From contig OZ240248.1 of the NCBI GenBank assembly GCA_965198235.1, positions 5,057,292 to 5,121,291 of the forward strand: a stretch of DNA of 64,000 bases, in the 5' to 3' direction. The notes under the pieces are model-generated. The model was not told where the DNA came from. It searched no databases and saw only the letters and a list, made by a program, of their open reading frames with translations. The DNA comes from Candidatus Poribacteria bacterium. Lineage in GTDB: Bacteria; Poribacteria; WGA-4E; WGA-3G. Position 1 is the stretch's first letter; each line of letters opens with the position of its first letter. Below, one piece after another: positions 15,176 through 64,000 of this stretch. The position numbers were made by a program, and so were the translations under genes.

Positions 15176-15445
15176 GACTATGCACCCAGGGTTGACAAGC
15201 TCCTCCAGGCGTTGCCCGCGTCGTTAGTTCAGGTTAGGCACCCTTGCGTCACACGAGCAACTTATCTACCGCTGCTTCCTTCCGGACCTGACGGGGTTCA
15301 ACAAGCGCCCGTTGCTCAAGACCCAACCATCAACACCACGTGCGCGGGACAGTCCCCACAGAAACGGGCCGCATACTGGGGATTCAGTCCTGCTTTAGCG
15401 GATTGCAGGATACAGGGCACCGCTACCTCCCCACCTAGCATAGCC
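15176..15445 (-). ncRNA. ffs: Large (Bacillus-type, Alu-containing) signal recognition particle RNA
   Basis: The 5' end GGCTATGCTAGGTGGGGAGGTAGCGGTGCCCTGTATCCTGCAATCCGC matches the B. subtilis scRNA Alu pattern. Helix 8 reads TCAGGTCCGGAAGGAAGCAGC, and the ends pair (GGCTATGC/GCATAGTC). About 270 nt. Confidence 0.95.
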
Positions 15446-15507
15446 AAGGCGTTAATTATTCTTGAACAGTTATATAGCAAGTTTTGACTTGCAAGCTGCG
15501 TCAAAAG

Positions 15508-15599
15508 TGGCGGAGAGAGTGGGATTCGAACCCACGGTACTGCAAAACAGCACACATGATTTCCAGTCATGCCAGTTCAACCAACTCCTGCATCTCTCC
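15508..15599 (-). tRNA. tRNA-Ser(GGA)
   Basis: Cloverleaf with anticodon arm CATGA-CTGGAAA-TCATG, long variable arm and encoded CCA. Confidence 0.95.
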
Positions 15600-15737
15600 G
15601 TAAAATTTTCAGGGACATCTCATCAAGCCGCACGCGATATGAGATGGGAAATCTGGTTTAAAAACAAATTTCGACCTAATTCCAGATCGAAGAATGTAAA
15701 TCAAAGACAAATTGTGCTTTAATAGCACAATTTCGTA

Positions 15738-15810
15738 TGGAGCAGACGGGATTTGAACCCGTGACCTCACCCGTGCGAGGGGCGCACTCTCCCAACTGAG
15801 CTACTGCCCC
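15738..15810 (-). tRNA. tRNA-Ala(CGC)
   Basis: GGGGCAG/CTGCTCC acceptor with G3:U70 and loop CT-CGC-AC. CCA not encoded. Confidence 0.92.
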
Positions 15811-15870
15811 AGAAGTGGAAAAAACAAACATTTTGCAACAGTTATTTTTCACCTACCATTAAGCAAAAAA

Positions 15871-15955
15871 CGGAGAGAGTGGGATTCGAACCCACGGTGA
15901 CTTGCGCCACAACAGTTTTCGAGACTGTCCAGTTCAACCACTCCTGCATCTCTCC
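15871..15955 (-). tRNA. tRNA-Ser(CGA)
   Basis: Anticodon arm ACAGT-CTCGAAA-ACTGT, long variable arm and G73. Confidence 0.95.
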
Positions 15956-16020
15956 TTCTGATGTAATCTCTCCAACCCATAGTAACGGGTGGCACACATC
16001 CCAGCCTTCCATAAACCTTT

Positions 16021-16479
16021 TTACACTTTACTACGGTGTTGCTGAAAAAAGGACTTCAGAAGGGCACCGCTCTCTTCTGCTAATATCCCGCTCACCAATT
16101 CAACCCGATGATTCAATCGTTCATCTTGAAGGATATTATAGAGCGTTCCGGCTGCCCCTGATTTCGGGTCTGTTGTTGCGTAAACAACTCTTGGAATACG
16201 TGCTAACACGATCGCCCCGGCACACATTGGACAGGGCTCTAACGTCACATATAGGGTCGTATCGACAAAACGCCAGTTACCAATTTTTTCGGATGCGGCT
16301 TGTAGGACAAGCATCTCCGCGTGGGCGATAGGACTGCCGCATGCTTCGCGTAAGTTAAATGCTTCAGCGATCAGGACATCGTCTCTAACAAGCAGAGCAC
16401 CAACTGGCACTTCTCCTTTTTCGCCCGCCTGCTGCGCTAATTTAAGAGCTTGCCCCATCCAGAAAAAATCGTTATCCAA
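16021..16479 (-). CDS. tadA: tRNA adenosine(34) deaminase
   Basis: GEVPVGA, HAEM and TLEPCPMCAGA. Confidence 0.96.
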   Translation of the reverse strand: MDNDFFWMGQALKLAQQAGEKGEVPVGALLVRDDVLIAEAFNLREACGSPIAHAEMLVLQAASEKIGNWRFVDTTLYVTLEPCPMCAGAIVLARIPRVVYATTDPKSGAAGTLYNILQDERLNHRVELVSGILAEESGALLKSFFQQHRSKV

Positions 16480-16502
16480 ATTTTTTCAGCAAATGCCTTT
16501 GA

Positions 16503-16576
16503 AGCGCCTGAGAGGATTCGAACCCCCGGCCTTCTGATCCGTAGTCAGATGCTCTAATCCACTGAGCTACAGGCGC
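16503..16576 (-). tRNA. tRNA-Arg(ACG)
   Basis: GCGCCTG/CAGGCGC acceptor and TCTGA-CTACGGA-TCAGA anticodon arm. Confidence 0.95.
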
Positions 16577-16669
16577 GTATGCTATGCATCAGGAATCAAA
16601 ACGTAGGACGGAGTTATAAGACTTTGATGGTCCTACAGTTCTCTGTCCTCTGATTTATTGCTTTACAAA

Positions 16670-16754
16670 CGGAGAGGGTGGGATTCGAACCCACGATGGC
16701 TTGCGCCATAACTGCTTAGCAGGCAGTCCAGTTCAACCACTCCTGCACCTCTCC
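16670..16754 (-). tRNA. tRNA-Ser(GCT)
   Basis: ACTGC-CTGCTAA-GCAGT anticodon arm and long variable arm. Confidence 0.95.
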
Positions 16755-16757
16755 TAA

Positions 16758-16845
16758 TGGCGGTGGGAGTAGGATTCGAACCCACGATGGCTTGCGCCAT
16801 AACGGTTTTCAAGACCGCCGCTTTCGTCCACTCAGCCATCCCACC
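16758..16845 (-). tRNA. tRNA-Ser(TGA)
   Basis: GCGGT-CTTGAAA-ACCGT anticodon arm, long variable arm and encoded CCA. Confidence 0.95.
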
Positions 16846-40902: not shown

Positions 40903-41262
40903 CTGTTCCTTCAAAACTTGATATATCTACACAAAAGCGGATATATCTTGTTTTAGTGTTCCTGTTTCAACGTCCACTGCCCCCAAACGAGGTCTTACAC
41001 GGACTCCATCAGGCGTTTAGCCTCTCCCAGCGAACCGCAGGCGAGGGTTCTTAGGTTCATAGCAGCGTTGACATCACGATCTTCTGTAAAACCGCAACTT
41101 TGGCAATGATACTGCCTCTCTGCTAACGATAAATCTTCTTTCTTCTGTCCACAGTGGCTACACGTCTTGCTTGAGGCGAAAAACTGGGGTGCCTCTACGA
41201 TCTTTATGCCAAGCCTGTCTGCTTTGCTTTTGAGTTTGGCAAGAAAACCCACTAAAGCGTTG
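40903..41262 (-). pseudogene. tnpB: TnpB C-terminal fragment (Zn ribbon + RuvC-III) with right end/omega-RNA-like tail
   Basis: ASSKTCSHCG...YHCQSCG..DRDVNAAMNL, then GCCTGATGGAG..GTAAGAC...TTGAAACAGGAA...GTTTTGAAGGAACAG. The N-terminal ~300 aa are missing. Confidence 0.85.
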
Positions 41263-54256: not shown

Positions 54257-55378
54257 CTACTCAAATGCGAGATGGGCGACGACCCCTGCGTGGTCGGAGG
54301 GCCACAACCCAGAAGGCAACCGTTCCGCTGGTGTATCTCCTATGGTGTGAGTCAGAATCTGCGTGGGGAGTTCAATATTTCTCGCAAAAATCTGATCAAT
54401 CCGTACAGAATGATCACTCACCTCATTTAAGATGTCATCGTCTTGGCAACAAGTATTACCAATTCCCTCGGAATCCACCTGCCAAAGGTCAACATACCCC
54501 GCAGAGAGTAAAAGTTGATAAGCGGTACCGTCGGGTGCCCTCGTATTGAAATCCCCTAACAGGATAATCGGCAGAGTTTCGTCGCTGAGGCTATCTACCA
54601 ATTCCTGCATTTGTGCAACCCGGTTTTCCTCCGCGAATGCCTCCAAGTGTGTATTGACAACGCGGTAAGTGACACCAGAAACGGTGGCATCTACAGCAGC
54701 GTAACCCCTTTTTACTTCAAGACCGAGCATTTCGATTGTAAGGGCATTTGCGTAGTTCGCGCTCATAGGACGTGATATCGTAACACCACCACGCGCCAGC
54801 AGCACATCAAAATCAGTTAAACGAACATCAACAATTCCAGCATCCGTAAACATCGGCATTTCCACATCAAGGTTTTCGACTTGGGCAGCGACTTGATAAT
54901 CTAAGCCTTCTGCTTGAAGCGCGCCCATCAAAATTTGGAGAAAATCTAAGACGACCTCTTCAGCATCAGGAGTTCTTTCTGTAATAGAATTGCCCGGGCT
55001 TTGTGTGCGAATGAGTGAAATCTCTTGTAAACCGATGAGATGTGGTTGATACATCTTTATAGACTTGGCAATTGCCGCAGCGCGCCCCGGAAAATCAGAG
55101 GCAATCACGTTGTTGTACATGGTAGCAACTTCTTGCGGTACTTGTATCAAGTTTTCTACAGACAGAAGCGGTTCTGCACTGCTCCCAACGTAAACATTGT
55201 AGGTCATCACTGTGAGTGGTTCCGTATCTGGGGTACTGACTTCTGGTAACATCGGTGGTGTTATCTTTTCACAACCCGATAGGCTTAACAGGATCCCGAA
55301 TAACAGGAGAACGATTTTGATGGAACTCACACGATTTGAAAACTTGCTATAAAAATTCAATTTTTTAGACATATTCAT
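54257..55378 (-). CDS. Endonuclease/exonuclease/phosphatase-family lipoprotein
   Basis: Lipobox LSGC, MTYNV, GLQE, NTHLE, GDFN, RIDQI and SDH. Confidence 0.88.
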   Translation of the reverse strand: MNMSKKLNFYSKFSNRVSSIKIVLLLFGILLSLSGCEKITPPMLPEVSTPDTEPLTVMTYNVYVGSSAEPLLSVENLIQVPQEVATMYNNVIASDFPGRAAAIAKSIKMYQPHLIGLQEISLIRTQSPGNSITERTPDAEEVVLDFLQILMGALQAEGLDYQVAAQVENLDVEMPMFTDAGIVDVRLTDFDVLLARGGVTISRPMSANYANALTIEMLGLEVKRGYAAVDATVSGVTYRVVNTHLEAFAEENRVAQMQELVDSLSDETLPIILLGDFNTRAPDGTAYQLLLSAGYVDLWQVDSEGIGNTCCQDDDILNEVSDHSVRIDQIFARNIELPTQILTHTIGDTPAERLPSGLWPSDHAGVVAHLAFE

Positions 55379-55450
55379 CTCCAATCCCTCAATTGTTAAA
55401 TTGAGGCGACTTTGTTGTACAAGCAATCCTCCGATTGCAATTAATATTAC

Positions 55451-55571
55451 CAGGACTTACGCAAAATTGGCTTCCATGCCAAAATTGAGCGGATATTCCC
55501 GAAGAAAGCGCAATGAATTGCGCTACTACGAACCAAAGACCGCGCGAAAACGGGTCAACTGCGTAAGTCCT
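55451..55571. mobile_element. MITE-like element with 12-bp terminal inverted repeats and a target-site duplication
   Basis: AGGACTTACGCA (55452-63) / TGCGTAAGTCCT (55560-71), flanked on both sides by ATATTAC; internal hairpin AGCGCAAT-GA-ATTGCGCT. Confidence 0.75.
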
Positions 55572-55668
55572 ATATTACTTTATCGTATTTCGGTGTCAAA
55601 ACCCCTGAATTCATTCGGGGGATATAGACACCGCCTTGTTGGAAAAGACCAAACACCGAAAAATACAT

Positions 55669-55697
55669 TTGACATTTGGTCTAAAATGTAGTATAAT
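55669..55697 (+). promoter_or_regulatory. Consensus sigma70 promoter inside the element
   Basis: TTGACA-17 nt-TATAAT directly before the structured leader. Confidence 0.8.
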
Positions 55698-55700
55698 CAT

Positions 55701-55785
55701 AGTATCACAGTGGCAGACATTTCCAGCGTCACCGCAAGGTGGCGTGTCTGCCTACCTACTGGAAAGGGGTTAAAATTGTGATACT
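55701..55785 (+). ncRNA. Putative structured leader RNA (pseudoknot/kissing loop) upstream of tnpB copy 1
   Basis: Four to five helices that covary with the copy at 63638-63720. Confidence 0.7.
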
Positions 55786-55796
55786 GTGAAAAACCA

Positions 55797-57008
55797 ATGC
55801 GAAACACGAACCATAAACTTTTTCAGGATAAGTCTTTGCATCACTTGCACGACGAGTGCAATATCTGTGGTGTTGTCAAGAACCACTTCCTTGCTCTGTG
55901 CATGCGATATTACCGTCGTTATGGTAAGGGGCTTTCATACTCGAAAATGTCTAAGCACTTGACGAAACTCAAGAAACTTGAGAAGTATAAGCATTGGAAT
56001 ATCCCCTACTCGTGGGCCTTACAGAATGTCCTCAAGCGTCTGGCACAAAGTTTCCGTGAAATGAAAACATTAGGCAGAGGTCACCCGCAATTCAAGTCCT
56101 GTAAGAAACATAAAGGTATGACGTTTAGAGGTGAACAGGTCAAGATAGAGAAAGTATTAGATAAGCAGAAGAACGAAAGAAATCACCCGACGTATCGTAT
56201 TCGTCTCAATGGTCGTTGGTATCGTTTCGCCTTGCACCGTGAAATCAAAGGTGAAATCAAGCAAGTTCACGTGACAAGGGACGCACTCGGAGACGTGTAT
56301 ATCACCGTCACAGAAGATTACTCGGAAGTCAAATATGAACCCAAGACAGGTAAAGCTGAAGGGTTCGACTTTGGTATCAAAGACTTCCTGACTGGTAGTG
56401 ATGGTAAACCATACGTTTCTCCCATGTTCTACAAACACAATGCCAAGACATTGGCAGAAGCACAGAAAGTATATTCCCGCAAGGTCAAAGGGTCTAACAA
56501 CCAAAAACGCCAACGCAAGACCGTTGCGCGTATCCATAAGAAGACTGCGAACCGAAGAATAGATCACCATTGGAAACTTGCTATACAACTCTGTCGTAAG
56601 TTTGATATTCTGTTCTTTGAAGATTTGAACCTTCGCGGTATGAAAAAACTTTGGGGTAAACAAGTTTCTGACCTCGCCTTCGGTGCGTTCATACAGAAAC
56701 TTAAGCACCAATCCCATAAACGCATTCGTTCCGTGCTGAAGATTGGGAGATGGATACCCACCACAAAGTGCTGTTCTGTTTGTGAACATAAAAATGATGA
56801 CCTAACATTAGCAGACCGTGCATGGACGTGTCCAAGTTGCCATACGCACCTTGACAGGGACCATAACGCTGCGATAAACATTCTTAAGGAAGGGGTAGCT
56901 TCCTTTGGGTTAGGAGTTGTAAGACCAATAGTTCTGTTCAACAGGATTGTTGGCACCTCCGTTGAATCCGCCAGTCCGATTCTGAATTCCACAAACGCTT
57001 TCGCATAA
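55797..57008 (+). CDS. tnpB: RNA-guided endonuclease TnpB
   Basis: RuvC-I GFDFG, RuvC-II FEDL, Zn finger CSVC..CPSC and RuvC-III DRDHNAA; all three acidic residues present. Confidence 0.95.
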   Translation: MRNTNHKLFQDKSLHHLHDECNICGVVKNHFLALCMRYYRRYGKGLSYSKMSKHLTKLKKLEKYKHWNIPYSWALQNVLKRLAQSFREMKTLGRGHPQFKSCKKHKGMTFRGEQVKIEKVLDKQKNERNHPTYRIRLNGRWYRFALHREIKGEIKQVHVTRDALGDVYITVTEDYSEVKYEPKTGKAEGFDFGIKDFLTGSDGKPYVSPMFYKHNAKTLAEAQKVYSRKVKGSNNQKRQRKTVARIHKKTANRRIDHHWKLAIQLCRKFDILFFEDLNLRGMKKLWGKQVSDLAFGAFIQKLKHQSHKRIRSVLKIGRWIPTTKCCSVCEHKNDDLTLADRAWTCPSCHTHLDRDHNAAINILKEGVASFGLGVVRPIVLFNRIVGTSVESASPILNSTNAFA

Positions 57009-57144
57009 CTTTGCGGAAGCCCCCGAATTCATTCGGGGGTCTATCACTATCGCATGTTTTACAAGAAACCGTGCCAAAAAGAGAGTAGCATAGATTCGCT
57101 TATACGTCAAATGTAATTCCCGCGAAACCCTCTTTTTCTTTCTC

Positions 57145-57173
57145 TTGACATTTGCCTATCTTTCTACTATACT
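57145..57173 (+). promoter_or_regulatory. sigma70 promoter
   Basis: TTGACA-17 nt-TATACT. Confidence 0.7.
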
Positions 57174-57213
57174 TAAGGCAGTTTCTAAAAGACTTATGGA
57201 GGTATGCACCCTA

Positions 57214-57654
57214 GTGAAATTCTATTATCAATCCTGCTCACACTATTGGAAATTAGTGTTCATAGCCGTTTTCATGACCATAGCACTTCTTATCGGATGC
57301 AGTCAAAAAACGAGTGCACCGGAGATCGGACAAACGACATCGCTCTCTGGAACGATTGTCGAAATCGACGACCATGGCAATGCTGTCACTGACCTTTACA
57401 TCGCTCCATTTACCGAACGCGGTTGGGAACTTGGGGACACGCTTGAAGCAACGTTTGCAACAGGGCAAAAAATTCAGATCAAATTTGTTGAAAACTATGG
57501 AGATGTTCCTGAGGGGGAATATTTGGGGCGATTTTCGACCTCTACCAAACAATTCAAGATTGCGATTAACATGGGAAACATCTCTAAAACTTTAGAGTTG
57601 AAGAACCAGAGCAAGGTGGTTCTTCAGAAAGTGGAGTCGTCTTCAGCAGATTGA
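57214..57654 (+). CDS. Lipoprotein with a stand-alone SAM hydroxide adenosyltransferase (DUF62) C-terminal-like domain
   Basis: Lipobox LIGC; GTIVEIDDHGNAVTD, YGDVPEGE and IAINMGN. Start uncertain (57196 or 57214). Confidence 0.65.
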   Translation: MKFYYQSCSHYWKLVFIAVFMTIALLIGCSQKTSAPEIGQTTSLSGTIVEIDDHGNAVTDLYIAPFTERGWELGDTLEATFATGQKIQIKFVENYGDVPEGEYLGRFSTSTKQFKIAINMGNISKTLELKNQSKVVLQKVESSSAD

Positions 57655-57739
57655 GTGGATCTGCCGCAATACCTACCGTGTAGACGTAAACTCATTTTCT
57701 ATCAGAAAGGTGTCCTATACGAGGATAAATATACGAGAG

Positions 57740-59314
57740 ATGCTTCTTACACTTAAACAGGCAAGTCAATGGGCTTCAAAACATCTAAATAAAAACGTTA
57801 CACCCGCAAATATCACCTATTTAATCCAGTATGGAAGGATTGAATCTGTTGTTGATAACGGTCTAACGTTGGTCCCCTTGGAAAGCCTTGAAAATTACTA
57901 CAGTCTAAACCATCGTGAAACACGATGGAAAGATGAGATCGGTGATGACTTGAATTGGACGCTATCCTTTGAAAAAGTGAAGGAGGCGGAAACAACAAAG
58001 CATGTCCACCGGTTGCATCCGTATAAAGGCAAATTTATTCCACAACTGGTAGCCTATTTTTTAGATTCGCATACTGACGACTTTAAACGGGATGTCTATT
58101 TTCGACCAGGTGATATTGTGCTTGATCCGTTCTGTGGGAGTGGGACTACTTTAATCCAAGCGAACGAACTCGGCATACACGCAATTGGTATTGATGTTTC
58201 GGCGTTTAACGCTTTTATTGGCAATGCTAAAGTGGCGACATATAATTTCATCCCTTTGTGTGAGAAAAGTCAGGAGATAACGGCAGCACTTAGAAATTTT
58301 GTCGCTACGTCCGGGATAGTCGAATTTGAATCTAAACTTGCGGAAATGCTTGTTGATTTTAATAATCAATATTTTCCAGTGTCTTTCAAACGTCAGGTCA
58401 GAGTAGGTGAAATCAATCAGAAGCAGTACGGGGCTGAGAGGGAAGAGGCGTTTTTAGAAACGTATCGTGAACTTGTTGCCGAGTATCAAATTGACACACA
58501 GATGCCAACCCACTCCGCTCGCTTTAGGAAGCAGTGGTATCTTCCGGGAGTTAGAGCCGAAATTGATTTCGTCTATAGTTTGATTAGAAGAATAGAAGAT
58601 CCTTCAATACAAAGTGCCTTGATGTTGATACTAAGTCGGACCATCCGTTCGTGTCGAGCTACAACACACGCAGATTTAGGCACATTGCGGGAACCTGTAA
58701 CCACAACCTACTATTGTCGAAAGCACGGCAAAGTCTGTAAACCGCTCTTTTCAATCCTCAGTTGGTGGGATCGGTACAGCAGAGATAGTATAGAAAGGTG
58801 GGTTAAGTTCAGTAAATTAAAAACGGATACCTTTCAACACTGCATAACGGGTGATTCGCGGACTATTGACATCTGCACGATATTGAGACAAGCAAGTCCA
58901 CAATTTGCAGAGATCGCCCAGAAACAGCGGATTAAGGGTATCTTCACAAGTCCTCCCTATGTTGGACTTATCAACTACCACGAGCAACATGCCTACGCCT
59001 ATGATCTCTTTGGTTTCAAGAGGTTAGATGAATTAGAGATTGGTCCTCTGTTTAGAGGGAAGGGACACGAGGCAAGAGAATCCTACATTCACGGTGTGGC
59101 AGAGGTTTTCAAAAACTGCAAGCGATCTTTGGCTAATGATTACGATGTTTTCGTTGTTGCAAACGATAAGTTTAATATGTATCCAACTATCGCTGAAATA
59201 GCTGGTATGCACATCGTCAATCAACACAAACGACCTGTGTTAAATCGGACCGAAAAAAATCGAGGGTCGGCGTATTCTGAGACGATATTCCACCTGAAAG
59301 AAAAAAGGAATTGA
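57740..59314 (+). CDS. DNA amino-methyltransferase with an N-terminal HTH-like segment
   Basis: HRLHPYKGKFIPQ, DPFCGSGTT and TSPPY. Confidence 0.88.
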   Translation: MLLTLKQASQWASKHLNKNVTPANITYLIQYGRIESVVDNGLTLVPLESLENYYSLNHRETRWKDEIGDDLNWTLSFEKVKEAETTKHVHRLHPYKGKFIPQLVAYFLDSHTDDFKRDVYFRPGDIVLDPFCGSGTTLIQANELGIHAIGIDVSAFNAFIGNAKVATYNFIPLCEKSQEITAALRNFVATSGIVEFESKLAEMLVDFNNQYFPVSFKRQVRVGEINQKQYGAEREEAFLETYRELVAEYQIDTQMPTHSARFRKQWYLPGVRAEIDFVYSLIRRIEDPSIQSALMLILSRTIRSCRATTHADLGTLREPVTTTYYCRKHGKVCKPLFSILSWWDRYSRDSIERWVKFSKLKTDTFQHCITGDSRTIDICTILRQASPQFAEIAQKQRIKGIFTSPPYVGLINYHEQHAYAYDLFGFKRLDELEIGPLFRGKGHEARESYIHGVAEVFKNCKRSLANDYDVFVVANDKFNMYPTIAEIAGMHIVNQHKRPVLNRTEKNRGSAYSETIFHLKEKRN

Positions 59315-62231: not shown

Positions 62232-62413
62232 GGATTGCTCCTCTGTTTTTGAGTCTAAGGCTGGTTAAAAGCCCATATTAACGTTAGCAGAGATCTGCAC
62301 TTTTTTCAACAACTTTTGGCTTGCGAACTTCATTAAAAAGTGCTTGCGCATCGATACTATTTCTGTTAGACTTGTGATAGACCCAAGTCTAAAGACTTGG
62401 GCTTCTGCAATCA

Positions 62414-63625
62414 TTAAGCAGAAGCATTTGTGGAATTCAGAATCGGATGGTTCGATTCAACGGAGGTGCCTACGATCTTGTTAAACAAAACAATAGGTCT
62501 TACAACTCCTAACCCAAAGGAAGCTACCCCTTCCTTGAGAATATTTATCGCAGCATTTTGGTCTCGGTCAAGATGCGTTTGGCAACTTGGACACGTCCAT
62601 TCCCGATCTGCGAGGGTTAATTCTTTATTATGGTAATCACAAACACAACAGCACTTTGTCGTAGGAGTCCATTTATCAATCTTCAGCACAGAACGTATCC
62701 GTTTTTTCGCCTGCCACTTGAGTTTTTGAGAGAACTCTCCAAACGCAAGGTCAGAGACCTGCTTTCCCCACAGGCGTTTCATACCGCTAAGGTTGAGATC
62801 TTCAAAGAACAGGATGTCAAACTTACGACAAAGTTCTATCGCAAGTTTCCAATGGTGGTCTGTCCGTTGGTTCGCCGTTTTCTTATGGATACGCGCAACA
62901 GTCTGACGGCACCGTTGCTGATTCTTAGAACCTTTGACCTTGCGAGAATACGCCTTTTGTGCGTTTGCCAATTGCTTGGCTTTCTGTTTGTAGAACATTG
63001 GAGAAGTATATCTATGACCATCACTGCCGATCAAGAATGCTTTGATACCAAAATCAAACCCTTCAGCTTGACCCGTCTTGGGTTCAATTTTAATTTCGGT
63101 ATAGTCTTCTGTCAGGGTGATATACATATCTCCGAGGGCGTCCCTCGTTACGTGAACTTGAACGAGGTCGCCTTTGATTTCACGGTGCAGAGCGAACCGA
63201 TACCAACGTCCGTTCAGTCGGATTTTATACGTCGGGTGGTGCCTCTCGTGTTTTTGCGCGTCCAGCACTTTCTCAATCTTCACCTGTTCACCGCGGAACG
63301 TCATCCCTTTGTGTTTCTTGCACTTCTTGAACTTCGGGTGACCTCTGCCAAGTGTTTTCATTTCACGGAAGCTTTGGGCGAGGCGTTTTAGGATATTTTG
63401 CAGACTCCACGCATAAGGAATGTTCCAATGCTTATACTTCTCAAGTCTCTTGAGTTGCGTCAGGTGCTTCGACATCTTGGAATACGAAAGTTCTTTACCG
63501 TATCTGCGGTAATATCGCAGTGAAAGTGCCAAAAAGTGGTTTTTCACAACGCCACAGATATTGAGTTCATCGTGGAGATGTTTCAAGGTTCTATCATGAA
63601 AAAGTTTATGATTTGTGTTCCGCAT
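62414..63625 (-). CDS. tnpB: RNA-guided endonuclease TnpB (diverged paralog of 55797-57008)
   Basis: 403 aa, collinear with copy 1; GFDFG, FEDL and DRDQNAA intact. Confidence 0.95.
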   Translation of the reverse strand: MRNTNHKLFHDRTLKHLHDELNICGVVKNHFLALSLRYYRRYGKELSYSKMSKHLTQLKRLEKYKHWNIPYAWSLQNILKRLAQSFREMKTLGRGHPKFKKCKKHKGMTFRGEQVKIEKVLDAQKHERHHPTYKIRLNGRWYRFALHREIKGDLVQVHVTRDALGDMYITLTEDYTEIKIEPKTGQAEGFDFGIKAFLIGSDGHRYTSPMFYKQKAKQLANAQKAYSRKVKGSKNQQRCRQTVARIHKKTANQRTDHHWKLAIELCRKFDILFFEDLNLSGMKRLWGKQVSDLAFGEFSQKLKWQAKKRIRSVLKIDKWTPTTKCCCVCDYHNKELTLADREWTCPSCQTHLDRDQNAAINILKEGVASFGLGVVRPIVLFNKIVGTSVESNHPILNSTNASA

Positions 63626-63637
63626 TTGGAATATCAG

Positions 63638-63720
63638 GTATCAGGCGTTTATCCCCTTACATGTGGGAGGCAGACACGCTACCCTGCGGTAACGCATGTA
63701 ATGTCTGCCAACCTGATACT
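63638..63720 (-). ncRNA. Putative structured leader RNA upstream of tnpB copy 2
   Basis: Same fold as 55701-55785 with compensatory changes; preceded by extended -10 TGGTATAAT (63724-63732). Confidence 0.7.
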
Positions 63721-64000
63721 CTCATTATACCACATTTCAAACTGAAAGTCTCGGAAAGTGGCGACCTTTGGCTTGCTAACGGAAGCTAAAGGGTACCGTT
63801 TCAGAGCCGAAGCCTCTGAAACTCGCCACTTTCCGCAAGTCTTTTTTAACATAGACCCCTGGTCTAATTCACAAGGGCGAGACTGTATCCCAAAGCTAAA
63901 GCATTGAGTTTTAGTCTCGGAAGTTAGATAACTATCGTGAGAAATTATAGCGTCCACTGCCCCGAAGGGGCATTGATTTAACCGAAAACCACCGTGAAAC

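What the first reader, a model, noticed from the sequence alone, without database searches (positions are those of the whole stretch)
55669..55796. Covarying pseudoknotted RNA leader with its own promoter upstream of both tnpB genes
Seen in the sequence: each full-length tnpB gene is preceded by a -10 TATAAT and then an ~85-nt fold. Copy 1 reads outer stem GTATCACA/TGTGATAC, GGCAGACA, [TTTCCAG], CGTCACC-GCAA-GGTGGCG, TGTCTGCC, TACCTA, [CTGGAAA], GGGGT. Copy 2 (63720->63638) reads outer stem GTATCAGG/CCTGATAC, GGCAGACA, [TTACATG], CGTTACC-GCAG-GGTAGCG, TGTCTGCC, TCCCA, [CATGTAA], GGGGA. The bracketed 7-mers are perfect complements in both copies yet differ between copies at 3 of 7 positions, always compensated. 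The outer stem has two more compensated pairs and the inner hairpin one, six in total. The bracket pairing crosses the GGCAGACA/TGTCTGCC helix, so it is a pseudoknot or kissing loop. Established: TnpB guide (omega/re) RNAs overlap the 3' end of tnpB and the right end, and both elements here also have that 3' structure. Inference: this is a second, 5' RNA module. It could be a translational switch (no clear SD sits next to the ATG; the SD-like AGGGG is inside the fold), a processed small RNA, or an element-specific identity or immunity signal, since the pairing sequence diverges fastest while the scaffold stays fixed.
Basis: partly seen in the sequence, partly recalled or inferred. Interest (0 to 1): 0.85.

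Follow-up and report, generated by a model that had tools for sequence, protein, structure and literature searches.

The report
Structured RNA leader before tnpB genes
A compact folded RNA of about 95 bases, not found in the RNA family library searched, sits between a strong promoter and the start codon of many transposon nuclease (tnpB) genes in sponge-symbiont bacteria and most likely controls how that nuclease is made.

Summary
Copy 1 (55702-55796, +) and copy 2 (63719-63626, -) belong to an RNA family with 25 copies in this genome. It was found in 100 of 151 sampled genomes of the phylum, which record titles of relatives name Candidatus Poribacteria.

On 98 distinct sequences, 97% of cells pair and 28 of 32 pairs show changes on both sides. 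This includes 6 of 7 pairs of the crossing 7-mer helix, which was not part of the search model. G-U cells outnumber A-C cells 193 to 28, which places the fold on the tnpB sense strand.

The fold is a three-way junction: P1, a P2-bulge-P3 arm, and a short hairpin P4 whose loop kisses the bulge. It starts within about 2 nt of the predicted transcription start. It ends 10 nt before the AUG in 75 of 92 cases, with no Shine-Dalgarno. A second copy of the P1 3' strand ("D") abuts the AUG and covaries with the P1 5' strand.

Rfam 15 gives no match. The same leader (mean 83% identical) precedes TnpB clades only 26-52% identical, and it takes the place of tnpA.

Best reading: a portable cis-acting expression module for tnpB mRNA. 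The function is inferred, not shown. The identity or immunity idea is not supported.

The parts
55602..55621 (+). Copy 1, subterminal left-end hairpin CCCCTGAATTCATTCGGGGG. It is nearly identical to the right-end hairpin and is the likely TnpA-recognised DNA hairpin. It is separate from the RNA leader.
   Evidence: Direct reading and comparison with the right-end hairpin. The TnpA role is inferred from what is known of IS200/IS605.
55669..55697 (+). Copy 1 promoter: TTGACA, 17 nt, TATAAT.
   Evidence: 12 of 12 consensus match. The same TTGACA-17-(TG)GTATAAT module lies upstream of most of the 105 related leaders and drives tnpA in the full-length element of this genome.
55702..55711 (+). P1 5' strand (S), GTATCACAGT. 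The predicted transcription start lies within about 2 nt of its first base.
   Evidence: P1 has 9 of 10 pairs with changes on both sides and 93.3% of cells paired. The start site is inferred from the distance to the -10 box, not mapped.
55712..55719 (+). P2 5' strand, GGCAGACA. It pairs with 55745-55752.
   Evidence: 99.9% of cells paired; 6 of 8 pairs change on both sides across variants.
55720..55726 (+). 7-nt internal bulge TTTCCAG, the 5' half of the kissing or pseudoknot helix.
   Evidence: 6 of 7 pairs change on both sides and 98.7% of cells are paired. These columns were unpaired in the search model.
55727..55744 (+). P3 hairpin CGTCACC-GCAA-GGTGGCG.
   Evidence: 7 of 7 pairs change on both sides and 99.1% of cells are paired. 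The loop is GCAA in 57 of 98 and GCTT in 17 of 98.
55745..55752 (+). P2 3' strand, TGTCTGCC.
55754..55770 (+). P4 hairpin: ACCT (55754-55757) with GGGT (55767-55770). Its 9-nt loop holds the 3' 7-mer CTGGAAA (55759-55765), which pairs with the bulge.
   Evidence: 93.7% of cells are paired but the helix is nearly invariant, with 1 pair changed on both sides. An indel-linked swap supports it: 19 of 19 own copies with TACCxA have GGGGT, while of 6 with T-CCCA, 5 have GGGGA and 1 has GGGGG. A variant class has UCC with GGA.
55775..55784 (+). P1 3' strand (P), ATTGTGATAC.
55784..55795 (+). D: a direct repeat of the first 5-7 nt of P, next to the start codon. It can pair with S in place of P.
   Evidence: The five inner S:D pairs form in 92-96 of 97-98 sequences, with changes on both sides in 1 to 42 sequences per pair. 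These columns were unpaired in the model. With P blocked, D pairs with S in 73 of 95.
55797..57008 (+). Copy 1 tnpB, 403 aa.
   Evidence: ORF. Pfam OrfB_IS605 plus Cas12f1-like_TNB. Matches the solved ISDra2 TnpB chain 8bf8_A (also 8ex9, 8exa) at E 1.2e-44.
57009..57047 (+). Copy 1 right end, with hairpin CCCCCGAATTCATTCGGGGG (57020-57039) and terminus GGGTCTATCAC. The likely 3' guide-RNA scaffold ends here.
   Evidence: Similarity between the two copies stops after GGGTCTATCAC. Contigs of four RNA libraries diverge after 57047. The guide RNA itself was not tested.
63626..63719 (-). Copy 2 leader: S 63719-63710; P2 63709-63702 with 63676-63669; bulge TTACATG 63701-63695; P3 63694-63677; P4 63668-63665 with 63655-63652; loop 7-mer CATGTAA 63663-63657; P 63645-63638; D 63638-63628.
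   Evidence: Direct reading. R1 match at 94.9 bits.
63724..63729 (-). Copy 2 -10 box TATAAT, preceded by TGG.
63752..63835 (-). 84-bp insertion with 13-bp terminal inverted repeats (CGGAAAGTGGCGA) that splits the -35 region of copy 2.
   Evidence: and comparison with uninterrupted upstream regions.
62414..63625 (-). Copy 2 tnpB, 403 aa.
62374..62413 (-). Copy 2 right end, finishing with GGGTCTATCAC.

Best explanation
The region is the 5' untranslated leader of the tnpB mRNA in tnpB-only IS200/IS605-family elements of Poribacteria.

How it is built. A consensus sigma-70-type promoter starts transcription at or within about 2 nt of the base of helix P1. The first ~85 nt fold into a three-way junction. 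P1 stacks on a P2-bulge-P3 arm, and a short hairpin P4 lies beside that arm. A 7-bp kissing helix between the P4 loop and the bulge locks the two together.

How it likely works. The fold is a portable cis-acting expression module that stands where tnpA and its Shine-Dalgarno sit in the full-length element. It base-pairs the 5' end of the mRNA, which may protect it. It leaves a fixed unstructured stretch of about 10 nt before an AUG that has no Shine-Dalgarno, so start-site use depends on the fold. The duplicated strand D can displace P and pair with S, which would bury the sequence next to the AUG. This gives an on state (S:P) and an off state (S:D) that tune TnpB synthesis.

What is shown and what is inferred. 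Shown: the structure, the strand, the position, the spacing, the absence of an SD, the covariation of D, and the distribution. Inferred: the transcription start, the effect on stability or translation, and the switch.
For: Structure:
- 97.4% of 3134 cells are paired.
- 28 of 32 pairs change on both sides.
- 0 of 500 shuffles reach the observed values, and slid controls pair only 33-51% of cells.
- The same holds on the 21 distinct own copies.

Strand: 193 G-U cells against 28 A-C cells.

Promoter: 12 of 12 consensus match, with 4 nt between the -10 box and P1; the same module lies upstream of most of the 105 related leaders by my reading of the listing.

Link to the start codon:
- In 92 of 98 distinct leaders a start codon follows P1 by 9-13 nt, and by exactly 10 nt in 75 of those 92.
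- An SD-like 4-mer is present in 1 of 92, against 47.5% of 608 long ORFs and 9.9% of random sites in this genome by a similar but not identical count.

D: the inner five S:D pairs hold in 92-96 of about 98 sequences and covary. In own copies L013 and L021, D pairs better with S than P does. In two variant copies (L090, L091) the unconstrained minimum-energy fold uses S:D.

Module character:
- Ten ORFs behind leaders are all TnpB by Pfam (10 of 10) yet only 26-52% identical to each other.
- Nine of their leaders are 72-93% identical, mean 83%.
- The full-length tnpA-tnpB element has the same promoter, a short leader with an SD, and tnpB overlapping the tnpA stop, with no fold.
- A variant leader with the same architecture has an AGGA SD and no D.

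Abundance: 25 copies in this genome against 6 Y1 tnpA genes.
Against: - Nothing shows directly that the leader is transcribed from this promoter. The public RNA libraries were available only as contigs, which cannot show starts, ends or strand.
- S:D is weaker than S:P. Blocking P costs 5.1 +/- 2.3 kcal/mol. In a fixed register, S:D contributes +1.2 kcal/mol against -7.3 for S:P. The off state would therefore need a trigger that I cannot name.
- In unconstrained folds, D is essentially free in only 24 of 95 sequences; otherwise it pairs with coding sequence.
- The strand asymmetry fits top-strand single-stranded DNA as well as RNA.
- Three architecture-alike copies in this genome, and a few leaders elsewhere, are not followed by tnpB. 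The fold may therefore have a role beyond tnpB translation.
- The near-invariant P2 and junction sequences suggest that something recognises the sequence specifically, and this reading leaves that partner unidentified.
Confidence: 0.55

Rival explanations
1. The fold is a sensor (a riboswitch or a binding site for a host factor). A ligand or host protein binds the three-way junction, stabilises P1 (S:P), frees D and the AUG, and so makes TnpB production conditional on the state of the cell.
For: - The architecture is that of junction riboswitches as I recall them: a closing P1, two side-by-side arms held by a distal loop contact, conserved junction nucleotides (U, UAAAG) and an alternative partner for a P1 strand overlapping the start region.
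- P2 and the linker are nearly invariant while other helices drift.
- One leader serves many TnpB clades, which fits a host-side partner.
Against: - The junction is very small (0-1, 1 and 5-6 nt).
- The motif was seen almost only in transposon copies, with no metabolic gene logic.
- No Rfam riboswitch model matches, even at E up to 10.
- Variant classes change P2 and the linker together, which suits a structural triplex or packing constraint as well as a binding pocket.
Confidence: 0.15
2. The fold is an autoregulatory operator or a second RNA partner of TnpB. TnpB binds the leader and represses, or otherwise controls, its own translation.
For: - TnpB is an RNA-binding protein whose own guide RNA contains a pseudoknot (recalled).
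- Autogenous control through leader pseudoknots is known for other RNA-binding proteins such as S15, S4 and T4 gp32 (recalled).
- The leader is tightly linked to tnpB.
Against: - The same leader (mean 83% identical) precedes TnpB proteins only 26-52% identical.
- One TnpB clade (85% identical proteins) uses two leaders with different P2, P3, linker and kissing sequences.
- Some leaders precede genes other than tnpB.
- I saw no likeness between the leader and the 3' end region by eye; this was not tested formally.
Confidence: 0.12
3. The fold is a self-cleaving ribozyme or a processing signal. It cuts near P1 or between P and D, releasing a stable small RNA and an mRNA with a short leader.
For: - It is a compact pseudoknotted fold with a few invariant nucleotides.
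- The strand order P2, bulge, P3, P2', linker, 7-mer is the same as P1, P2, P3, P1', J4/2, P2' of HDV-like ribozymes (recalled).
- The tandem P and D would suit a cut at their border.
Against: - No ribozyme family of Rfam 15 matches at E up to 10.
- P3 is a 7-bp helix capped by a tetraloop, so the L3 and P1.1 core of HDV-like ribozymes cannot form.
- The junction strands do not fit the hammerhead core.
- A dedicated promoter directly in front removes the usual need to trim read-through transcripts.
Confidence: 0.08
4. The fold is a single-stranded DNA structure of the transposon's top strand, used by TnpA during excision or integration, and is not an RNA.
For: - IS200/IS605 elements transpose as single strands and rely on DNA hairpins.
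- The G-T over A-C asymmetry is also what a top-strand DNA fold would show.
Against: - Each element already has matched subterminal left-end and right-end hairpins elsewhere (55602-55621 and 57020-57039).
- The full-length element that encodes TnpA lacks the fold.
- The fold keeps a fixed 10-nt distance to the start codon and begins at the predicted transcription start. That is a constraint at the RNA level.
- It persists in front of non-transposon ORFs without element ends.
Confidence: 0.05
5. The fold is an element-specific identity or immunity signal. The fast-diverging 7-mers let each copy recognise itself.
For: The 7-mer helix is the most variable part of the fold.
Against: - The two 7-mers pair with each other in 98.7% of cells.
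- They match a copy's own 285 nt upstream and its own 3' end no better than those of other copies: mean best match 5.46 against 5.48, and 5.96 against 5.92.
- Drift under a pairing constraint explains the pattern.
Confidence: 0.03

Closest known systems
TnpB guide RNA (omega RNA / reRNA) of IS200/IS605 elements
   Same: It is a transposon-encoded structured RNA on the tnpB sense strand in the same element, and pseudoknotted (the latter recalled). The TnpB here is a relative of ISDra2 TnpB.
   Different: The guide RNA overlaps the 3' end of tnpB and the right end and carries a guide taken from the flank. This fold is at the 5' end, ends 10 nt before the AUG, has no guide-like free segment, and shows no copy-specific match to the element ends.
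Rfam IS605-orfB-I and IS605-orfB-II motifs
   Same: They are structured RNA motifs found by comparative analysis next to IS605 orfB (tnpB) genes.
   Different: Both families are in Rfam 15, and cmscan found no match to them at E up to 10 on the leader. I did not read their original description; its supplements were closed.
IS200 tnpA 5' leader (stem-loop over the ribosome-binding site; recalled, no call)
   Same: It is a structured 5' untranslated region of an IS200/IS605-family transposon gene that limits translation.
   Different: That one is a simple hairpin that sequesters an SD in front of tnpA. Here there is a three-way junction with a kissing helix, no SD, it sits in front of tnpB, and the tnpA-bearing element lacks it.
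IS110 bridge RNA
   Same: It is a structured non-coding RNA encoded in the 5' region upstream of the transposon's enzyme gene (I saw only the search listing and the start of the abstract of PMC11208160).
   Different: Bridge RNA loops pair with target and donor DNA. Here the two variable 7-mers pair with each other and do not match the element's ends. The enzyme is also different.
Autoregulatory or SD-independent leaders of bacterial mRNAs (rpsO/S15 and alpha-operon/S4 pseudoknots, T4 gene 32, rpsA; all recalled)
   Same: They are pseudoknotted or multi-hairpin leaders placed at a fixed distance from the start codon that decide 30S access. rpsA also lacks an SD.
   Different: There is no sequence or model similarity. 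The partner here is unknown, and the duplicated P1 strand (D) has no counterpart that I know of.
Junction riboswitches with distal loop-loop contacts (purine, THF-I; recalled)
   Same: They share a closing P1 used as the switch helix, two parallel arms tied by a distal tertiary pairing, and an expression platform overlapping the start region.
   Different: No Rfam match. The junction is much smaller, the kissing helix is 7 freely covarying Watson-Crick pairs, and the fold occurs in transposons rather than metabolic operons.
IStron group I intron at the 5' side of IS605/IS607 elements
   Same: It is an extra RNA module at the 5' part of a TnpB-bearing transposon (abstracts in the listings).
   Different: A group I intron is several hundred nucleotides long. 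This fold is about 85 nt and gave no intron match in Rfam.

Membership tests
Any described RNA family (Rfam 15, 4227 models, including IS605-orfB-I/II, HEARO, c4, ribozymes and riboswitches) | A match to the family covariance model at or near its gathering score | tested here: not met
   Whole window at gathering threshold: 7 matches (SRP RNA and 6 tRNAs), none here. Region 55300-57400 at E up to 10: two chance-level hits. Region 55690-55805: best hit DUF3800-IX at 15.3 bits against a cut-off of 36.8, E 0.61. Four variant loci: 0 hits at E up to 1.
TnpB omega RNA / reRNA | Overlaps the 3' end of tnpB and the transposon right end, with the guide taken from the flank just past the right end | tested here: not met
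   The fold lies at 55702-55796, upstream of the ATG at 55797. The right end is at 57047.
TnpB omega RNA / reRNA | Bound by TnpB and needed for DNA targeting | not testable with these tools
   No RNA-protein tool or binding data were available.
IS200/IS605 end hairpins (TnpA-recognised DNA) | Subterminal imperfect palindrome, alike at the left and right ends | tested here: not met
   Such a pair exists elsewhere in the element (55602-55621 and 57020-57039). The fold is internal, behind the promoter, and has no counterpart at the right end.
HDV-like self-cleaving ribozyme | Nested double pseudoknot with a short P3, an L3 loop forming P1.1, and a catalytic C in J4/2 | tested here: not met
   The strand order is alike, but P3 is 7 bp closed by a 4-nt loop (GCAA in 57 of 98), so L3 and P1.1 cannot form. 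No Rfam HDV-type hit. Cleavage itself was not tested.
Riboswitch | Direct ligand binding that changes the fold | not testable with these tools
   Only the architecture could be compared.
Riboswitch | Mutually exclusive pairings that link the aptamer's P1 to the start region | tested here: inconclusive
   S can pair with P or with D, and both covary. However, S:D is about 5 kcal/mol weaker.
IS110-type bridge RNA | Loops complementary to the element's donor ends and to the target | tested here: not met
   The variable 7-mers pair with each other. Their matches to a copy's own ends equal those to other copies' ends.
Leader peptide / upstream ORF | A reading frame kept open across copies | tested here: not met
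   In the frame that starts at (T/G)TG GCA GAC, the first stop falls anywhere from codon 0 to 26 among 98 sequences, and 6 of the 98 have no stop at all.
Structured cis-regulatory 5' leader of an mRNA | Lies between the promoter and the start codon on the sense strand, with a conserved structure and a conserved distance to the start codon | tested here: met
   The spacing is 10 nt in 75 of 92.
Structured cis-regulatory 5' leader of an mRNA | A measurable effect on translation or mRNA stability | not testable with these tools
   No expression data were available beyond assembled contigs.

The most novel reading that the evidence does not exclude
The leader is a previously undescribed sensing RNA, either a new riboswitch class or an operator for a host or transposon protein. 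It gates synthesis of an RNA-guided nuclease, so that TnpB-driven homing in these sponge symbionts is switched on only in a particular cellular state. The tandem P/D strands would be a simple strand-exchange expression platform that works without a Shine-Dalgarno sequence.
Probability: 0.22. Interest if true: 0.85.

Novelty: new variant of a known kind. Interest (0 to 1): 0.66.

Why it matters
TnpB elements are understood as a nuclease gene plus a 3' guide RNA. Little is known about how the nuclease itself is expressed or restrained in nature.

Here a second, strongly conserved RNA module accompanies tnpB. There are more than a thousand matches in the 151 sampled genomes, and the module is more conserved than the proteins it precedes. 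It appears exactly where tnpA was lost.

If it controls TnpB translation, three things follow:
- It is a natural dial on an RNA-guided nuclease.
- It is an example of start-codon selection without a Shine-Dalgarno sequence in a little-studied phylum.
- It is a compact, well-defined fold (three-way junction plus a 7-bp loop-bulge kiss) that is ready for structural and reporter work.

It also adds a new, high-confidence family to the catalogue of structured bacterial RNAs, from uncultivated sponge symbionts.

Tried and rejected
Rfam was searched four times. Nothing better than chance came back.

Public RNA libraries were available only as assembled contigs.
- Contigs cannot show starts, ends, strand or level, so I draw no expression claim from them.
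- Cover of the leader was patchy. One contig of run X2 spans 55616-55754. One contig of run X9 joins 55654 to 55797, a form lacking the promoter and leader; whether other letters lie between the two sides is not known.
- Stretches without cover prove nothing.
- Four runs have loose ends after 57047, which agrees with the right-end boundary.

Leader peptide: rejected, because stops fall at scattered positions. I also dropped the idea that the TGA in D is kept in frame with the ATG. The two window copies break it by direct reading.

Identity signal: rejected.

HDV-like and hammerhead readings: rejected on core features and on Rfam. Cleavage was not tested.

A home-made descriptor scan of the genome gave 140 hits, most of them false at my loose thresholds. 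It recovered 26 leaders that passed my P2-sequence filter and three architecture-alike copies without tnpB (C1 537350-, 1877822-, 3783677+). An exact pattern for those three was found in only 2 of 61 genomes of the genus. I did not follow them further, and I cannot say whether they are homologous.

A fixed-register energy comparison overstated the weakness of S:D. The constrained folds are the better estimate.

It shows presence in Poribacteria records (78 of the 80 rows shown; the other 2 are titled 'uncultured bacterium') but not absence elsewhere. Outside the phylum nothing was searched with a structure model.

Literature searches, and passages of PMC10055086, turned up no description of a 5' RNA fold before tnpB. 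Subscription papers and all supplementary files were out of reach. The motif lists of comparative RNA surveys, which are mostly in supplements, may hold it.

I did not test the 3' guide RNA, did not run R-scape, and did not compare right ends between TnpB clades.
Full report
WHAT IS THERE

The window is G000:C1:5057292-5121291. It holds two 403-aa tnpB genes, at 55797-57008 (+) and 63625-62414 (-). Both carry Pfam OrfB_IS605 plus the Cas12f1-like TNB domain. Copy 1 matches the solved ISDra2 TnpB chain 8bf8_A (also 8ex9, 8exa) at E 1.2e-44. In the printed alignment, which is to the top hit, an AI-designed nuclease of the same length and matched range, the motifs GFDFG, FEDLN and DRDHNAA line up with the nuclease motifs as I recall them.

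The two elements are 84% identical. Similarity runs from just upstream of the -10 box to a shared terminus, GGGTCTATCAC, at 57047 and 62374.

- Copy 1 has a perfect promoter: TTGACA, 17 nt, TATAAT at 55669-55697, a 12 of 12 match.
- Copy 2 keeps TGGTATAAT, but its -35 region is split by an 84-bp insertion with 13-bp inverted ends (63752-63835).

IS IT MORE THAN CHANCE?

Both leaders fold far better than shuffles, with z-scores of -7.2 and -5.2 and 0 of 200 shuffles as good.

BLAST with copy 1 found 26 matches in the same genome. Of these, 23 cover the fold at 74-84% identity, including in front of TnpB genes only 41-46% identical in protein.

On those 23 copies (21 distinct):
- 96.4% of cells pair.
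- The crossing 7-mer helix has changes on both sides in 6 of 7 pairs and is 98.6% paired.
- No shuffle of 500 reaches the observed covariation score or percentage paired (1 of 500 reaches the count of further pair types), and sliding the partners by 1-3 columns drops pairing to 30-42%.

A covariance model of the nested helices (R1) finds 25 copies in this genome. It found 105 matches in 100 loci taken from many other genomes.

On those 98 distinct sequences:
- 97.4% of 3134 cells pair.
- 28 of 32 pairs change on both sides.
- 0 of 500 shuffles reach any measure, and slid controls pair 33-51% of cells.
- The 7-mer helix was not part of the model, so its 98.7% pairing and 6 of 7 covarying pairs are not an artefact of the fit.

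Variant classes keep the architecture with quite different letters:
- P2 GGGAGA/TCTCCC with kiss GTATCAG/CTGATAC (L087-L091).
- P2 GGTAGAGA/TCTCTACC with kiss ATGTTAC/GTAACAT (own genome, upstream of the TnpB at C1:239795-240997).
- P2 lengthened to 11 bp, or P3 carrying a large insertion.

The structure is real.

STRAND AND ANATOMY

G-U cells number 193 and A-C cells 28. The fold therefore belongs to the strand that has the sense of tnpB.

The 3' 7-mer sits in the loop of a short hairpin, P4: (A/U)CCC paired with GGG(U/A). P4 is nearly invariant, so column counts say little. It is 93.7% paired, with one pair changed on both sides. A linked change does support it:
- All 19 own copies with TACCxA have GGGGT.
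- Of the 6 with T-CCCA, 5 have GGGGA and 1 has GGGGG.
- The distant class has UCC with GGA.

The fold is thus a three-way junction. P1 is continuous with P2 on the 5' strand. P2 and P3 are separated by a 7-nt bulge. P4 has a 9-nt loop that pairs over 7 nt with that bulge. Very short joining strands connect them (0-1 nt, U, and UAAAG).

The near-invariance of P2 and of the linker, and their joint change in the variants, suggests packing or triplex contacts. This is inference.

The -10 box ends 4-5 nt before the first base of P1, so the transcript should begin at or within about 2 nt of the base of P1. This is inferred, not mapped.

LINK TO THE START CODON

In 92 of 98 distinct leaders a start codon follows the end of P1 by 9-13 nt, and by exactly 10 nt in 75 of those 92. 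Only 1 of 92 has an SD-like 4-mer at -18 to -4. In this genome, by a similar but not identical count, 47.5% of 608 long ORFs have such a motif, against 9.9% of random sites.

The 10 nt are not arbitrary. They begin with a repeat (D) of the first 5-7 nt of the P1 3' strand (P). The five inner S:D pairs form in 92-96 of about 98 sequences and change on both sides in up to 42 sequences per pair. D, too, was unpaired in the model.
- In own copies L013 and L021, D is a better complement of S than P is.
- In two variant copies (L090, L091), the unconstrained minimum-energy fold uses S:D.
- S:P is the stronger helix. Blocking P costs 5.1 +/- 2.3 kcal/mol, after which D pairs with S in 73 of 95.

This is the layout of a two-state platform. 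S:P leaves the AUG region free. S:D would bring a helix to within 1-4 nt of the AUG. What would tip the balance is unknown.

The variant in front of the TnpB at C1:239795-240997 has the same architecture, an AGGA Shine-Dalgarno and no D. That fits the view that D and an SD are alternative solutions for the start region.

CONTEXT IN THE TRANSPOSON

Each element has matched subterminal hairpins at its two ends. In copy 1 these are 55602-55621 and 57020-57039. They are the expected TnpA sites, and the fold lies inside them, behind the promoter.

The genome holds 6 Y1 transposase (tnpA) genes. One full-length element (C1 about 118729-120300, minus strand) has:
- the same promoter (TTGACA...TGGTATAAT);
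- a short leader with an SD;
- tnpA;
- tnpB overlapping the tnpA stop;
- and no fold.

So in tnpB-only elements the fold occupies the place of tnpA and its ribosome-binding site. One tnpB copy has neither promoter nor fold.

Ten ORFs behind leaders from different genomes are all TnpB by Pfam (10 of 10) but only 26-52% identical to each other. The nine that carry the main leader type have leaders 72-93% identical, mean 83%.

The promoter-leader is therefore a shared, portable module. It is either under much stronger constraint than the protein or passed between elements by recombination.

A few leaders stand before other things:
- a small signal-peptide ORF (L112);
- a membrane-protein ORF about 100 nt downstream (L114; in L085 the downstream frame is similar but shorter);
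- truncated elements (L152, L201).

DISTRIBUTION

With R1:
- 38 of 61 relatives matched (this count includes the window's own genome): all 36 genomes of the genus, and 1 of 24 from three other families of the order.
- In a class-level sample, 76 of 151 matched.

With R2, a model built from the 105 matches, 100 of 151 genomes of a phylum-level sample matched:
- family f1: 82 of 99;
- family f3: 17 of 26;
- seven other families: 0 of 25.

That search returned about 1170 matches. These are samples, and incomplete genomes cannot show absence.

Of the 80 rows shown, 78 are titled Candidatus or uncultured Poribacteria and 2 'uncultured bacterium'.

I infer from these relatives that it is a poribacterium, a group of sponge symbionts. 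No structure-model search was made outside the phylum.

WHAT IT IS NOT

- It matches no Rfam 15 family, although Rfam 15 contains the IS605-orfB motifs.
- It is not the guide RNA, because it is at the wrong end of the gene and has no guide.
- No reading frame is kept open through it.
- The variable 7-mers and S do not match a copy's own ends better than those of other copies. This removes the bridge-RNA-like and the identity-signal readings.
- The HDV-like strand order is only a topological likeness. The 7-bp, tetraloop-capped P3 (GCAA in 57 of 98) excludes that catalytic core.

HOW IT MOST LIKELY WORKS

My best reading (0.55) is a cis-acting expression module for tnpB mRNA, with three effects:
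- It pairs the 5' end of the mRNA.
- It sets a fixed, unstructured, SD-less approach to the AUG.
- It can be shut by S:D exchange.

The rivals are:
- a sensor for a ligand or host factor (0.15);
- a TnpB-binding operator (0.12), weakened because leader sequence and TnpB clade are uncoupled;
- a ribozyme or processing signal (0.08);
- a DNA-level structure (0.05), weakened by the fixed spacing to the AUG, by absence from the tnpA-bearing element and by presence outside elements;
- an identity signal (0.03).

All functional statements are inference. The public RNA data were contigs only and cannot show a start, an end or a strand.

NOVELTY

The searches I could run (passages of PMC10055086) found no description of a 5' structured RNA before tnpB, and no paper mentioning TnpB together with Poribacteria.

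I rate it a new variant of a known kind. It is a TnpB-only IS200/IS605 element with an added, previously uncatalogued 5' RNA module of the cis-regulatory leader type.

Noticed in passing
window 63752-63835 (- strand): An 84-bp insertion with 13-bp terminal inverted repeats (CGGAAAGTGGCGA) splits the -35 region of the copy 2 promoter. The repeat word occurs only 3 times in the chromosome. In two other copies (L003, L005) a different sequence ending in ...GACTTTCCG abuts the same TGAC, so the -35 box may be an insertion hot spot.
   Followed up: partly
window 55560-55572: The word TGCGTAAGTCCTA, just outside the left end of copy 1 and followed by TATATTAC, occurs 78 times in the chromosome on both strands. 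It also flanks other copies (L029, L152). It may be a repeated host sequence used as a target, or the end of another element.
   Followed up: partly
own genome C1:537350-537403(-), 1877822-1877875(-), 3783677-3783730(+); loci L212-L214: Three copies share the same helix lengths and order (P2 GGAYAGCA-like, P3 CCCGCAC-GCTT-GTGYGGG, complementary 7-mers) but have no tnpB behind them. One follows an IS-type left-end hairpin and the same promoter, and precedes a terminator-like hairpin. There was no Rfam hit, and homology to the main family is unproven.
   Followed up: partly
L112:3097-3194, L114:6171-6264, L085:2374-2493: Leaders with a different upstream promoter context stand before ORFs that are not tnpB: a 152-aa signal-peptide protein starting ATGAAAACG, and a membrane protein about 100 nt downstream. 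This may be capture of the promoter-leader by host genes.
   Followed up: partly
window 55654/55797 (run X9 contig): One RNA-library contig joins 55654 directly to 55797, giving a form of the element without the 142-nt promoter-leader block. Whether other letters lie between the two sides is unknown. This genome also has a tnpB copy lacking the block (C1:4993643-4994845).
   Followed up: partly
window 57145-57173: A second near-consensus promoter (TTGACA, 17 nt, TATACT; 11 of 12) lies about 100 nt past the right end of copy 1, upstream of a region with a GGAGG and downstream ORFs, including a DNA methylase-like gene at 57710-59314.
   Followed up: no
window about 41025-41258 (- strand): A short TnpB-like remnant (35% identity to residues 294-371 of copy 1), listed among the own-genome protein matches.
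   Followed up: no
window 15178-16845 (- strand): A large-type bacterial SRP RNA (188.6 bits) lies next to a cluster of six tRNA genes.
   Followed up: no
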